Virus record (IMG/VR): IMGVR_UViG_2648501338_000003
From: a virus
Taxonomy: Duplodnaviria > Heunggongvirae > Uroviricota > Caudoviricetes
Reading direction: 5' to 3' (one strand)
DNA length: 10,977 nt
Part shown: positions 1-2,665 of the stretch, in pieces
How the letters are laid out: every line of letters starts with the position of its first letter
Numbering within the stretch: position 1 is the first letter of the stretch
Notes under the pieces: model-generated
Told to the model about the DNA's origin: nothing
The model's input: only the letters and a program-made list of their open reading frames with translations
Database searches by the model: none
Position numbers and translations under genes: made by a program

Positions 1-48
1 CATGTAGATGATAATTATTATCATTTTCGTGGGTCCTTTCCGGCGATC
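1..48. other. cosQ: cos upstream segment, expected to contain cosQ (packaging termination element)
   Basis: Sequence 1-60 (catgtagatgataat...ccggcgatccgacaggttacg) closely matches the right end of the lambda genome as I recall it (ends ...CCGACAGGTTACG), immediately before the cohesive end. Exact cosQ boundaries cannot be set from sequence alone. Confidence 0.5.
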
Positions 49-84
49 CGACAGGTTACGGGGCGGCGACCTCGCGGGTTTTCG
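49..84. other. cosN: cosN nicking site; 12-nt cohesive end GGGCGGCGACCT at 61-72
   Basis: Positions 61-105 (gggcggcgacctcgcgggttttcgctatttatgaaaattttccgg) are identical to the first 45 nt of the lambda left end as I recall it; the lambda 12-nt 5-prime overhang is GGGCGGCGACCT. Top-strand nick expected between 60 and 61, bottom-strand nick between 72 and 73. Confidence 0.8.
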
Positions 85-109
85 CTATTTATGAAAATTT
101 TCCGGGATC

Positions 110-120
110 CATGTCCGGTT
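110..120 (-). repeat. R-like repeat copy 1 (catgtccggtt, reverse complement of aaccggacatg)
   Basis: Exact 11-bp match in inverted orientation to the copies at 168-178 and 198-208. Confidence 0.6.
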
Positions 121-167
121 TCTCTTCAAGTTAACTATATGAAAAATATAAAAACAGGTCTTCTGTG

Positions 168-178
168 AACCGGACATG
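168..178 (+). repeat. R-like repeat copy 2 (aaccggacatg)
   Basis: Exact 11-bp direct repeat; the identity extends to 12 bp (aaccggacatga, 167-178 region). Confidence 0.6.
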
Positions 179-197
179 AACAAAAAACAGACATGTA

Positions 198-208
198 AAC
201 CGGACATG
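198..208 (+). repeat. R-like repeat copy 3 (aaccggacatg), overlapping a one-mismatch inverted copy catgaccggtt at 205-215
   Basis: Exact 11-bp direct repeat 30 bp downstream of copy 2. The overlapping inverted near-copy at 205-215 makes a composite site. Confidence 0.6.
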
Positions 209-255
209 ACCGGTTTTGTTGTGATTGTGAGGTGAGAGTTTTTGCGAGGTGAGGA

Positions 256-765
256 GTGGCTACGCAGACTGAAGTTGCCAGGCATTTAAGTCTGACCGAT
301 CGCCAGCTTCGCAGATTGCAGAAATTGCCGGGTGCCCCGATATCGAATAAGCGAGGGCAACTGGATCTGGATGCCTGGCGCGATTTTTACATATCGTATC
401 TGAGGAGAAGTAAAAACGATGTGCCTGATGGCGATAGCGAAGACGACTATGAGGAGAAATTGCTTATTGCCAGATGGGAACTGACAGCAGAACAGGCTGT
501 TACACAGCAGTTAAAAAATGAGGTGTCAAAAGGAAAACTTATTGACACCGGGTTCTGTATTTTTGCCCTCAGTAAGCTGGCAATGGCGTTATCCAGTACG
601 CTTGATTCCATCCCTTTATCCATGCAGCGACAGTTTCCTGATTTAACACCGCGCCATCTTGACCATCTGAAAACCCTTATTGCTAAGGGGGCAAATCAGT
701 GTGCGCGGGCAGGGGATAAATTACCGGATTTACTCGATGAATATATCAGAGCAACAACTGAATAA
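256..765 (+). CDS. nu1: terminase small subunit (Nu1-like), GTG start
   Basis: 169-aa ORF. The C-terminal half (TGFCIFALSKLAMALSSTLDSIPLSMQRQFPDLTPRHLDHLK) aligns with lambda Nu1 (TAFCTFVLSRIAGEIASILDGLPLSVQRRFPELENRHVDFLK). The N-terminus has a helix-turn-helix-like segment (TEVARHLSLTDRQLRRL). GTG at 256 is preceded by GAGGT at 246-250; an in-frame stop at 250-252 rules out a longer N-terminus. Overlaps the start of A by 29 nt, as in lambda. Confidence 0.85.
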   Translation: MATQTEVARHLSLTDRQLRRLQKLPGAPISNKRGQLDLDAWRDFYISYLRRSKNDVPDGDSEDDYEEKLLIARWELTAEQAVTQQLKNEVSKGKLIDTGFCIFALSKLAMALSSTLDSIPLSMQRQFPDLTPRHLDHLKTLIAKGANQCARAGDKLPDLLDEYIRATTE

Positions 766-2665
766 TATGATGGCTGCCGTTTCGGTTGCGCTGCAGCCTC
801 TGGTCAGGGTTGTACCAATGACGGCAGTTGAATGGGCTGATCAAAATTATTATCTGCCTAAAGAATCCTCATACGGTGAGGGCGAATGGAAAACGCTGCC
901 ATTCCAGATCGCCATTATGAACTGTATGGGTAACGACCAGGTTCGCACGGTTAACCTGATTAAATCTGCCCGTGTTGGCTATACAAAGATGTTGCTGGGG
1001 GTGGTCGGGTATTTTATTGAGCATAAATCCCGAAACAGTCTGCTTTTTCAGCCCACGGATTCTGCCGCTGAAGATTTTATGAAGTCTCACGTGGAGGCGA
1101 CGATTCGGAACGTGCCATGCCTGAAAGACCTTTCCCCATGGCTGGGTCGTAAACATCGTGACAATACTCTCACGCTGAAACGCTTTTCATCGGGCGTCGG
1201 TTTCTGGTGCCTGGGCGGCGCAGCCGCCAAAAACTACCGTGAAAAATCCGTGGACGTGGTCTGCTATGACGAACTTTCCTCGTTCGAGCCGGATGTCGAA
1301 AAAGAGGGCTCGCCAACCCTGCTGGGGGATAAGCGTATTGAGGGCTCGGTATGGCCAAAATCCATTCGCGGCTCGACGCCTAAAATCAAAGGCACCTGCC
1401 AGATCGAAAAAGCCGCCAACGAGTCGGCGCATTTCATGCGTTTCTATGTGCCCTGCCCGCACTGTGGGGAGGCGCAGTATCTGAAATTTGGCGATGAATC
1501 CACGCCTTTTGGCCTTAAATGGGAGAAGGACAGCCCCGAAAGCGTTTTCTACCTCTGTGAACATCATGGCTGCGTGATCCATCAGTCTGAACTGGACCAG
1601 AGCAACGGGCGCTGGATCTGTGAAAACACGGGCATGTGGACCCGTGACGGCCTGACGTTTTTCAGCGCCCGGGGGGATGAAATTCCGCCGCCGCGCTCCA
1701 TCACGTTCCATATCTGGACGGCGTACAGTCCGTTCACCACCTGGATACAGATAGTCTATGACTGGCTGGATGCACTGAAAGATCCCAACGGCCTGAAAAC
1801 CTTTGTGAACACCACGCTGGGCGAGACCTGGGAAGAAGCCGTGGGCGAAAAACTCGATCACCAGGTACTGATGGATAAGGTGGTGCATTACACGGCGGCG
1901 GTACCTGCCCGGGTGGTTTATCTGACGGCGGGCATTGACTCGCAGCGAAACCGTTTTGAGATGTATGTCTGGGGATGGGCACCGGGAGAGGAAGCTTTTC
2001 TGGTGGATAAAATCATCATTATGGGCCGTCCCGATGAGGAAGAGACGCTGTTACGTGTGGATGCGGCGATCAACAAAAAATACTGCCATGCAGACGGAAC
2101 CGAAATGACCATTTCCCGTGTCTGCTGGGACACCGGGGGGATCGATGGTGAAATTGTCTATCAGAGGTCAAAAAAACACGGTGTTTTCCGGGTGCTGCCG
2201 GTAAAAGGCGCATCTGTCTATGGCAAGCCGGTGATCACCATGCCGAAAACCCGCAATCAGCGGGGCGTGTATCTGTGTGAAGTGGGGACGGACACCGCAA
2301 AAGAAATTCTCTATGCCCGTATGAAAGCCGATCCCACTCCTGCGGATGAAGCCACGTCGTATGCCATCCGTTTTCCTGATGATCCGGAGATTTTTTCGCA
2401 GACAGAGGCGCAGCAACTGGTCGCGGAAGAGCTTGTGGAGAAGTGGGAAAAAGGAAAGATGCGTCTGCTGTGGGATAACAAAAAGCGGCGTAACGAAGCG
2501 CTGGACTGCCTGGTGTATGCCTACGCGGCATTACGTGTGTCCGTGCAACGCTGGCAGCTTGATCTGGCTGTACTGGCAAAATCCCGGGAAGAAGAGACGA
2601 CCCGGCCAACCCTGAAAGAACTGGCAGCGAAGCTGTCCGGAGGAGTGAATGGTTACAGTCGCTGA
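737..2665 (+). CDS. A: terminase large subunit (gpA-like; ATPase/nuclease)
   Basis: Starting from MNISEQQLNN, the protein aligns along its full length with lambda gpA (e.g. TAVEWADQNYYLPKESSYGEGEWKTLPFQ, KSARVGYTKMLLGV, CWDTGGIDGEIVYQRSKKHG, KKRRNEALDCLVYAYAALR). The ATG at 737 is chosen by homology to the lambda start MNISNSQ; the ORF track begins upstream at 680. Confidence 0.93.
   Translation: MNISEQQLNNMMAAVSVALQPLVRVVPMTAVEWADQNYYLPKESSYGEGEWKTLPFQIAIMNCMGNDQVRTVNLIKSARVGYTKMLLGVVGYFIEHKSRNSLLFQPTDSAAEDFMKSHVEATIRNVPCLKDLSPWLGRKHRDNTLTLKRFSSGVGFWCLGGAAAKNYREKSVDVVCYDELSSFEPDVEKEGSPTLLGDKRIEGSVWPKSIRGSTPKIKGTCQIEKAANESAHFMRFYVPCPHCGEAQYLKFGDESTPFGLKWEKDSPESVFYLCEHHGCVIHQSELDQSNGRWICENTGMWTRDGLTFFSARGDEIPPPRSITFHIWTAYSPFTTWIQIVYDWLDALKDPNGLKTFVNTTLGETWEEAVGEKLDHQVLMDKVVHYTAAVPARVVYLTAGIDSQRNRFEMYVWGWAPGEEAFLVDKIIIMGRPDEEETLLRVDAAINKKYCHADGTEMTISRVCWDTGGIDGEIVYQRSKKHGVFRVLPVKGASVYGKPVITMPKTRNQRGVYLCEVGTDTAKEILYARMKADPTPADEATSYAIRFPDDPEIFSQTEAQQLVAEELVEKWEKGKMRLLWDNKKRRNEALDCLVYAYAALRVSVQRWQLDLAVLAKSREEETTRPTLKELAAKLSGGVNGYSR

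What the first reader, a model, noticed from the sequence alone, without database searches (positions are those of the whole stretch)
107..215. Non-lambda cosB with three copies of an 11-bp element joined to lambda-type cosN
The sequence appears identical to lambda for 45 nt from the cohesive end (61-105) and then diverges abruptly. The following 110 bp contains aaccggacatg three times: inverted at 110-120, direct at 168-178 and direct at 198-208, plus an overlapping one-mismatch inverted copy at 205-215. An AT-rich spacer (128-158) lies between copies 1 and 2. This matches the architecture of lambda cosB (three small-terminase R sites flanking an IHF-bent spacer), but the repeat differs from the lambda R-site sequence as I recall it (CGTTTCC-containing) and its orientation pattern differs. 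The Nu1 N-terminal DNA-binding domain here is also diverged from lambda while its C-terminal domain is conserved. Together this predicts a packaging specificity distinct from lambda with a shared cosN, like the lambda versus phage 21 relationship.
Basis: partly seen in the sequence, partly recalled or inferred. Interest (0 to 1): 0.5.

Follow-up and report, generated by a model that had tools for sequence, protein, structure and literature searches.

The report
Uncharacterised cosB type of lambda-like prophages
This is the DNA-packaging start site of a lambda-like E. coli prophage: it keeps lambda's cutting site but carries its own set of small-terminase binding repeats matched to a diverged DNA-binding domain, so it probably represents a further, so far untested packaging specificity that occurs in about a fifth of complete E. 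coli genomes.

Summary
AACCGGACATG occurs at 110-120 (-), 168-178 (+) and 198-208 (+), with a one-mismatch copy at 205-215 (-). Window 61-105 equals lambda bp 1-45.

The region is a lambda-type cos site:
- cosQ at 31-37 and cosN at 59-74.
- R3 at 110-120, which is bp 50-60 from the cohesive end, the position of lambda R3.
- An IHF-like I1 site at 132-144.
- An inverted R2 at 168-178.
- A third site at 198-208.

Downstream lie TerS (256-765) and TerL (737-2665).

In 11 diverged lineages from five enterobacterial genera, R3, I1 and R2 keep the same positions and an invariant 47-bp gap, while the spacer sequence drifts. The core TCCGGTT accompanies this TerS DNA-binding domain as far as Aeromonas, Pseudomonas, Microbulbifer and Azospirillum.

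The base 5' of the core covaries with residue 20 of the recognition helix: Arg goes with G, and Asp/Asn/Ser/Thr/Glu go with T.

The domain is a diverged Nu1-type winged helix, not a foreign one. The repeat is a relative of the lambda and 21 R elements but identical to none.

It is best read as an uncharacterised member of the lambda/21/N15/Gifsy-1 series of packaging specificities. Binding and specificity are inferred, not shown.

The parts
31..37 (+). cosQ (GGGTCCT), the packaging termination signal
   Evidence: The sequence lies 30 nt upstream of the cohesive-end nick, as in lambda. Window 2-105 matches lambda's cos junction at 94%. The 7-bp cosQ is reported as highly conserved in lambda-like phages (PMC4669245). 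Its function here is inferred.
59..74 (.). cosN: the 12-nt cohesive-end sequence GGGCGGCGACCT (61-72) plus 2 flanking bp on each side
   Evidence: Identical to lambda bp 1-12 and flanks. The definition of cosN follows PMC9026076.
75..105 (.). Lambda-identical segment between cosN and cosB (lambda bp 15-45), including the conserved ATGAAAATTTT box
   Evidence: Identical to lambda. The box is retained in all related lineages.
110..120 (+). R3-equivalent TerS site, CATGTCCGGTT, at bp 50-60 from the cohesive end
   Evidence: Located. Invariant in 22 collinear E. coli variants. At bp 50 or 51 in all 11 lineages. Lambda R3 is bp 50-65 (PMC9026076).
132..144 (+). I1-like IHF site, TAACTATATGAAA (reverse complement of WATCAANNNNTTR, 2 mismatches)
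   Evidence: The same position carries a 0-mismatch consensus in 4 lineages and 1 mismatch in 4 more. Lambda I1 (TAACTTAATGTTT, bp 74-86) also has 2 mismatches.
168..178 (-). R2-equivalent TerS site, inverted relative to R3, exactly 47 bp after it
   Evidence: The 47-bp gap is invariant in 11 lineages.
198..208 (-). Third TerS site, in the same orientation as R2 and 30 bp downstream of it; the R1 counterpart with reversed orientation
   Evidence: Conserved at +30 bp in Enterobacter loci L099 and L186 and in E. coli variants, and at +42 bp in Klebsiella loci L089 and L090. Absent in several Salmonella and Citrobacter lineages.
205..215 (+). Degenerate fourth copy, CATGACCGGTT, forming a palindrome with the third site (197-216)
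   Evidence: Not conserved outside close E. coli variants. The palindrome also scores as a weak terminator-like hairpin.
256..765 (+). Small terminase subunit gene (169 aa, GTG start). Codons 1-55 (256-420) encode the winged-helix DNA-binding domain, with the recognition helix at aa 15-22/23 (DRQLRRLQK)
737..2665 (+). Large terminase subunit gene (642 aa), overlapping the end of the TerS gene
   Evidence: 66% identical to lambda gpA over 639 aa. GpA_ATPase and GpA_nuclease domains. The start follows the PhiR12_1 annotation.

Best explanation
Window 61-255 is the cosN-cosB end of a lambda-like prophage genome. The 11-bp repeats are the R elements recognised by the phage's own small terminase subunit.

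Proposed mechanism:
1. The N-terminal winged helix-turn-helix domain of TerS (aa 1-55) binds CATGTCCGGTT through its recognition helix (aa 15-23).
2. The site at bp 50-60 (R3) anchors terminase, so that TerL nicks the lambda-type cosN 12 bp apart.
3. IHF bends the AT-rich I1 box and brings the inverted R2 site next to R3, so that a TerS dimer docks on both.
4. A third site one to two turns further on adds affinity.

Because the R sequence and the recognition helix differ from those of lambda, 21, N15 and Gifsy-1, the phage should package only DNA carrying its own cosB, although it shares cohesive ends with lambda.

Shown here: the anatomy, its conservation, the association of motif and domain, and the fold. 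Inferred: binding, IHF dependence and specificity.
For: - Position. R3 lies at bp 50-60 versus lambda R3 at bp 50-65. The R3-to-R2 span is 68 bp versus 67 in lambda and 66 in phage 21.
- Conserved geometry. In 11 lineages (E. coli, Salmonella, Citrobacter, Enterobacter, Klebsiella) R3 is at bp 50/51, an IHF-consensus box at about bp 72 and R2 at bp 108/109. The gap is always 47 bp, although the spacer sequence differs.
- Footprint. Among 22 collinear E. coli variants, 2 of 33 site columns vary against 26 of 77 non-site columns in bp 46-155 (Fisher p = 0.0017).
- Association of motif and domain. Every locus but two (L107, L228) encoding this DNA-binding domain type carries a TCCGGTT core, or a one-base variant of it, upstream. 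This includes the Aeromonas phage phiARM81ld, whose record starts at the cohesive end and has CATTTCCGGTT at bp 52-62.
- Covariation. Helix residue 20 is Arg in all 8 domain variants whose sites read G-TCCGGTT, and D/E/N/S/T in all 18 whose sites read T-TCCGGTT. Lambda (N21, T56) and phage 21 (R21, G56) show the same pairing at the homologous positions.
- Positive control. The same comparative approach recovered GGTTGTTGT repeats beside N15-type domains (L102). That is the experimentally mapped N15 R3 at bp 48-60 (PMC9026076).
- Viability. Phages PhiR12_1 to _5 carry this cos and TerS at 97% identity, and their records name E. coli K-12 or C as host.
Against: - There are no binding, footprinting or packaging data for this class.
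- The Arg20/G covariation may rest on a single evolutionary event in this family, because the Arg20 sequences may form one clade.
- Published genetics assign lambda bp 56 to TerS residue E24, not to residue 21 (PMC9026076). Which residue reads the variable base is therefore uncertain.
- The I1 box in this window has 2 mismatches to the IHF consensus, and such matches are not enriched in the window overall.
- The AF2 models have only moderate confidence, and Foldseek E-values were all above 0.1.
- hhalign between this domain and the lambda-type domains gave only 17% probability.
Confidence: 0.8

Rival explanations
1. The repeats are genuine TerS sites, but the specificity is not distinct. Because the element shares CATGTC with the phage 21 R sites and TCCG-TT with lambda R3, terminase of 21 or lambda (or vice versa) cross-packages this cos, as N15 terminase packages lambda DNA.
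For: The R elements are similar: 21 CATGTCGG, lambda CGTTTCCGTT, this window CATGTCCGGTT. One-way cross-packaging between classes is documented for N15 acting on lambda (PMC4669245).
Against: The recognition helix DRQLRRLQK differs from lambda's IRTIQNWQE and 21's PRTIERWQS at most positions. The element has an extra base and lies 2-3 bp nearer cosN, and in lambda shifts of 3 bp are severely deleterious (PMC9026076).
Confidence: 0.12
2. The repeats bind some other protein, such as a phage or host regulator, or act on late-gene expression rather than on packaging.
For: The repeats lie in the leader of the TerS gene. The palindrome at 197-216 followed by T residues scores as terminator-like, as does the stem at 102-118.
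Against: No promoter-like site was found in 1-800 and there is no Rfam hit. Site positions are fixed relative to cosN rather than to the TerS start, which varies from bp 145 to 200. The motif follows the TerS domain type and not the rest of the genome. The palindrome is not conserved outside close variants.
Confidence: 0.05
3. The repeats are chance matches or selectively neutral remnants of duplications.
For: Short repeats are common in AT-rich intergenic DNA.
Against: 0 of 200 shuffles reach the observed count. The sites are conserved in position and sequence across genera while the flanks diverge.
Confidence: 0.02

Closest known systems
Bacteriophage lambda cos (cosQ-cosN-I2-R3-I1-R2-R1) with gpNu1/gpA terminase
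   Same: cosQ and cosN are identical, as is bp 1-45. R3 is at the same place, an IHF-like box lies between R3 and an inverted R2, and the R3-R2 span is almost the same (68 vs 67 bp). TerS has a winged-helix N-terminal domain and a Nu1 C-terminal part. TerL is 66% identical to gpA.
   Different: The R element is CATGTCCGGTT rather than CGTTTCC(G/T)TTCT. R3 and I1 lie 2-3 bp nearer cosN. The third site has the orientation of R2, not of R3. The DNA-binding domain is about 12 aa shorter and is missed by Pfam PF07471.
Phage 21 cosB and gp1 (a packaging specificity distinct from lambda with shared cohesive ends)
   Same: The logic is the same: shared cosN, its own R sites and its own recognition helix. 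The 21 R2/R1 element CATGTCGG(A/G)CC shares CATGTC with this repeat, and Arg at the homologous helix position goes with G in the element.
   Different: There is one extra base (TCCGG vs TCGG) and a different 3' half (TT vs NCC). The recognition helix differs at most positions, and the 21 domain is readily recognised as Nu1-like. Both classes occur in about 21% of complete E. coli genomes.
N15 / Monarch class (R3 GGTTGTTGT; simple or complex cosB)
   Same: The domain is as far from lambda's as this one is, and both match phrog_57 at about 1e-9. Both classes exist in a simple form (single R3 just before the TerS gene: N15; phiARM81ld for this class) and a complex R3-I1-R2(-R1) form (L102; this window).
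   Different: The R sequence and recognition helix are unrelated.
Gifsy-1 cosB
   Same: A lambda-like R3-I1-R2-R1 layout. Its cohesive end GGGCGGCAGCGT is also found joined to this cosB class in Salmonella loci L095 and L096.
   Different: The Gifsy-1 R element is CAGATCC(G/T)TTC, and its domain is lambda/21-like.

Membership tests
Lambda-like cos site (complex cosB type) | A 12-nt 5' cohesive-end sequence similar to lambda's, with a conserved cosQ upstream | tested here: met
   61-72 is identical to lambda bp 1-12, and GGGTCCT lies at 31-37. Actual cleavage was not tested.
Lambda-like cos site (complex cosB type) | An R3 site about 50-65 bp from the cohesive end, then an IHF site, then an inverted R2 | tested here: met
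   R3 is at bp 50-60, the I1-like box at bp 72-84 and inverted R2 at bp 108-118. The layout is conserved in 11 lineages.
Lambda-like cos site (complex cosB type) | A third site, R1, in the same orientation as R3 | tested here: not met
   The conserved third site (198-208) has the orientation of R2. The R3-oriented copy (205-215) has a mismatch in the core and is not conserved outside close variants. Several lineages have no third site.
Lambda-like cos site (complex cosB type) | TerS binds the R sites and IHF binds I1 | not testable with these tools
   Needs EMSA or footprinting. Only comparative evidence is available.
Phage_Nu1 small terminase (PF07471 / phrog_57) | Sequence match to the family profile | tested here: met
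   PF07471 scores 1e-18, above its cut-off, but covers aa 49-150 only. phrog_57 scores 1.7e-55 over aa 1-169.
Phage_Nu1 small terminase (PF07471 / phrog_57) | An N-terminal MerR-like winged helix-turn-helix DNA-binding domain | tested here: met
   [not shown]
Lambda packaging specificity class | R elements CGTTTCC(G/T)TTCT and recognition helix RTIQNWQE | tested here: not met
Phage 21 packaging specificity class | R elements C(G/A)TGTCGGNNCT and recognition helix RTIERWQS | tested here: not met
   The element shares only CATGTC, and the helix differs. Functional cross-recognition was not tested.
N15/Monarch packaging specificity class | R3 containing GGTTGTTGT and a domain of the form MAVLLNKSDMASS... 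| tested here: not met

The most novel reading that the evidence does not exclude
This cosB/domain cassette is a separate, widespread and experimentally untouched packaging specificity of lambda-like phages, with two natural sub-specificities: Arg20 with CATG-TCCGGTT, and Asp/Asn20 with CAT(T/C)-TCCGGTT. These would give a one-residue/one-base recognition rule, mirrored by lambda N21/T56 versus 21 R21/G56. Which of the several lambdoid prophages in an EHEC genome can package one another, or satellites, would then be readable from this roughly 330-bp cassette. The reversed third site may also mean a nucleoprotein architecture at cosB that differs from lambda's.
Probability: 0.45. Interest if true: 0.55.

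Novelty: new member of a known kind. Interest (0 to 1): 0.4.

Why it matters
Packaging specificity in lambda-like phages has been worked out experimentally for lambda, 21 and N15 only. This class is as frequent in complete E. coli genomes as the 21 class: 1155 versus 1160 of 5426. It sits in O157:H7 and O145 prophages, often in two or more copies per genome.

If its specificity is distinct, it sets which co-resident prophages, defective prophages and cos-carrying satellites can be mobilised by which helper.

The natural series of recognition-helix and R-element variants, together with a viable phage (PhiR12), offers a ready test bed for how a winged-helix terminase subunit reads its site. It also shows that cosN, the cosB/DNA-binding-domain cassette and the TerS C-terminal part assort independently.

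Tried and rejected
- **Copy at 205-215 as the true R1.** This reading would give lambda's orientation pattern. I rejected it because only the 198-208 copy is conserved in Enterobacter, in Klebsiella and in the E. coli variants that have lost the palindrome.
- **Identity with N15 or Gifsy-1.** I checked whether the class is simply one of these specificities. It is not.
- **Full-length AF2 model.** Foldseek on this model gave only non-significant hits.
- **Genome-contig scan.** It returned just 4 loci. The first viral-contig scan returned 80 near-identical loci.
- **Literature.** Searches for the motif and for cosB in O157 prophages found nothing relevant. Sippy 2015, Feiss 2015 (Virology) and Feiss 2010 (Genetics) are not held, so the novelty claim is limited to what I could read.
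- **Other negatives.** An Rfam scan of 1-1000 found nothing, and no promoter-like site was found in 1-800.

Full report
**1. Observation**

The 11-mer AACCGGACATG occurs exactly at 110-120 (-), 168-178 (+) and 198-208 (+). A one-mismatch copy lies at 205-215 (-). None of 200 dinucleotide-preserving shuffles of the window reached four matches (repeat families).

Window 61-105 is identical to lambda bp 1-45 and diverges from bp 46. Window 2-105 matches the joined cos of lambda and many lambdoid phages at 92-98%, and GGGTCCT (cosQ) lies at 31-37. The window therefore begins 60 bp to the left of a lambda-type cohesive-end site. Below, bp 1 means window position 61.

**2. Genes**

- The ORF at 256-765 (GTG start, 169 aa) is the small terminase subunit. 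Pfam Phage_Nu1 matches only aa 49-150, and there is no sequence hit to any solved Nu1 domain.
- TerL runs from 737 to 2665. It has the gpA ATPase and nuclease domains and is 66% identical to lambda gpA.
- The ORF sizes downstream of TerL fit lambda-type W and portal genes. I did not examine the ORFs beyond them.

**3. Where this sequence occurs**

- Of 50,697 phage records, only PhiR12_1 to _5 carry this cosB and TerS, at 97% identity. Their records name E. coli K-12 or C as host.
- The cosB plus DNA-binding-domain segment (100-435) is present at 80% coverage or more in 1155 of 5426 complete E. coli genomes, including O157:H7 and O145. The median is 2 places per genome.
- For comparison: the lambda type occurs in 3955 genomes (the five records listed annotate it as nohA or nohD), the 21 type in 1160, and the N15/Monarch type in 221.

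**4. Anatomy compared with lambda and phage 21**

Counting from bp 1:

| Phage | R3 | R2 (inverted) | Third site |
|---|---|---|---|
| Lambda | CGTTTCC at 53-59 | 114-120 | R1 at 155-161, R3 orientation |
| Phage 21 | CGTGTCGG at 53-60 | 112-119 | R1 at 153-160, R3 orientation |
| This window | CATGTCCGGTT at 50-60 | 108-118 | 138-148, R2 orientation |

- The window also has a degenerate R3-oriented copy at 145-155.
- The R3-to-R2 span is 68 bp here, against 67 in lambda and 66 in phage 21.
- Lambda's I1 box TAACTTAATGTTT is at bp 74-86. The window has TAACTATATGAAA at bp 72-84. Both have two mismatches to the IHF consensus.
- The layout can be superimposed on lambda's with a 2-3 bp shift towards cosN. 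MAFFT also places a 2-nt gap there.
- PMC9026076 gives lambda R3 as bp 50-65, with bp 55-63 contacted by TerS. It reports that the cosN-R3 distance is critical.

**5. Comparative test**

TerS homologues fall into groups that share the C-terminal part but carry different N-terminal domains:

- The type in this window: MATQxEVAxHLxLTxRQLRRLQKLPGAP...
- A type that proved to be the N15 domain.
- The lambda/21 type.

I fetched loci for diverged members of the first type from Klebsiella, Salmonella, Citrobacter, Enterobacter, E. coli and metagenomes.

*Conserved geometry.* In 11 lineages R3 starts at bp 50 or 51. A YAANNNNTTGATW box lies at about bp 72, with 0 mismatches in four lineages, 1 in four and 2 in three. 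R2 starts at bp 108 or 109, and the gap between R3 and R2 is always 47 bp. The spacer sequence, the cohesive-end sequence and the distance to the TerS start (bp 145-200) all vary.

*Footprint.* Among 22 collinear E. coli variants, 2 of 33 site columns vary against 26 of 77 non-site columns in bp 46-155 (Fisher p = 0.0017).

*Third site.* It is kept in the R2 orientation at +30 bp in Enterobacter and in E. coli variants that lack the palindrome, and at +42 bp in Klebsiella. It is absent in several Salmonella and Citrobacter lineages. The copy at 205-215 is not conserved beyond close variants.

**6. Motif and domain travel together**

- In distant hosts the same domain type is preceded by a single or tandem TTCCGGTT site about 27 bp before the start codon. 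This holds for Microbulbifer, Azospirillum, Aeromonas phage phiARM81ld, Pseudomonas phage LPPA33 and several metagenomic contigs.
- The phiARM81ld record begins at a GGGCG... cohesive end and has CATTTCCGGTT at bp 52-62, with the TerS ATG at bp 79. This is a 'simple cosB' like that of N15.
- As a positive control, the N15-type domain in E. coli locus L102 is preceded by GGTTGTTGT in an R3> <R2 R1> pattern. N15 itself has GAGGTTGTTGTTT at bp 48-60, which is the R3 mapped there by linker-scanning mutagenesis (PMC9026076, PMC4669245).

**7. Covariation**

- Among 26 distinct domain sequences with an upstream site, residue 20 is Arg in all 8 whose sites read (C/G/T)ATG-TCCGGTT. It is D, E, N, S or T in all 18 whose sites read ...T-TCCGGTT.
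- Residue 12 also partitions the two groups, but with heterogeneous residues on both sides.
- Residue 20 lies in the predicted recognition helix (aa 15-22).
- In the alignment with lambda and 21 it corresponds to lambda N21 and 21 R21, and lambda has T56 where 21 has G56. The same Arg/G pairing therefore appears in a second family.
- Caveats: the Arg20 group may be a single clade. Published genetics link lambda bp 56 to E24 (PMC9026076).

**8. Nature of the domain**

- The AF2 model of the N-terminal 81 aa (pLDDT 75) shows strand, helix 4-10, helix 15-22, a short wing and helix 38-54.
- PHROG phrog_57 (terminase small subunit) matches the N-terminal 55 aa at 8e-10. It does so in the same register as the domains of lambda (9e-26), 21 (2e-21) and N15 (7e-10).
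- R16, Q22, G26 and P28 are invariant across this protein, lambda, 21 and phi80.
- The domain is therefore a diverged homologue of the Nu1 domain, about as far from lambda as the N15 domain is. It is not a foreign domain.

**9. Nature of the repeat**

The element is a relative of known R elements:

- Lambda R3: CGTTTCCGTT.
- Phage 21 R2/R1: CATGTCGG(A/G)CC.
- Gifsy-1: CAGATCC(G/T)TTC.
- This window: CATGTCCGGTT.
- Sister subtype: CAT(T/C)TCCGGTT.

**10. Modularity**

- The same C-terminal TerS part occurs with this domain, the N15 domain or a lambda-like domain.
- The Gifsy-1 cohesive end GGGCGGCAGCGT occurs with a lambda-like cosB in Gifsy-1 and with this cosB class in Salmonella loci L095 and L096.
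- Other cohesive-end sequences also occur with this class (L091, L099, L101).
- The exchangeable unit is roughly bp 46 to codon 60, about 330 bp.

**11. Alternatives**

- There is no promoter-like site in 1-800 and no Rfam match.
- Two weak terminator-like hairpins were found (102-118 and 197-216). Both are formed by the repeats themselves, and the second is not conserved.
- Site positions are fixed relative to cosN and not to the gene start. This argues for a packaging role over an expression role.

**12. Literature**

- The accessible papers describe the lambda, 21, N15/Monarch, Gifsy-1 and PICI cosB types (PMC4669245, PMC9026076, PMC6739421, PMC6092414).
- None mentions this motif or this domain.
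- PMC4669245 notes that 21 and N15 do not illustrate more extreme exchanges of specificity.
- Three key subscription papers were not available.

**13. Verdict**

- The locus is a lambda-type cos site belonging to an apparently uncharacterised packaging-specificity class. The class is common in E. coli, including EHEC prophages.
- It is a further member of a known series rather than a new kind of system.
- Interest is moderate. The value lies in a testable recognition rule and in predicting which prophages can package one another.

Noticed in passing
L102:1310-1500 (E. coli A34 prophage); L232:1-100 (phage N15): An E. coli prophage with an N15-type TerS DNA-binding domain has GGTTGTTGT three times in an R3> <R2 R1> pattern around an IHF-like box. 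The same sequence is the mapped R3 of N15 (bp 48-60). It looks like the 'Monarch-type' complex form of the N15 specificity. This cosB/domain segment is present in 221 of 5426 complete E. coli genomes.
   Followed up: partly
L095/L096:1350-1500 (Salmonella) versus L233:29480-29670 (Gifsy-1): The Gifsy-1-type cohesive end GGGCGGCAGCGT is joined to a lambda-like cosB in Gifsy-1 and to the CATTTCCGGTT cosB class in other Salmonella prophages. cosN and the cosB/domain cassette therefore assort independently.
   Followed up: partly
L091, L102, L006, L007 (about 100-190 bp upstream of the TerS start): These loci have a different sequence at the cohesive-end position (…GGGGACGGCAGACGCGCAAAAA… in L091, with close variants in the other three) after a normal cosQ. 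The flanking ATGAAAATTTT box is retained in L091, diverged in L102 and absent in L006 and L007. This is probably a different cohesive end used by related TerL proteins.
   Followed up: no
L230:1-80 (Aeromonas phage phiARM81ld); L231:120-165 (Pseudomonas phage LPPA33): Distant phages with the same TerS domain type have only a tandem TTCCGGTTCCGGTT site just before the TerS start codon, and their short leaders show no R2. This is a 'simple cosB' version analogous to N15.
   Followed up: partly
window 197-216: The third and fourth repeat copies form a palindrome, AAACCGGACATGACCGGTTT, with core centres 11 bp apart and followed by a T-rich run. It could take a TerS dimer on unbent DNA or act as a weak terminator. 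It is confined to close E. coli variants.
   Followed up: partly
window 85-285 (- strand): A 66-aa ORF overlaps cosB, and a shorter version is annotated as a hypothetical protein in PhiR12_1. Its sequence varies in the cosB spacers among variants, so it is probably not a gene.
   Followed up: no
E. coli genomes: The lambda-type cosB plus Nu1 domain segment is present in 3955 of 5426 complete E. coli genomes. The five records listed annotate it as nohA or nohD ('DNA-packaging protein'). Intact-looking lambda-specific cos sites are therefore nearly ubiquitous in the species.
   Followed up: no
[not shown]
   Followed up: no
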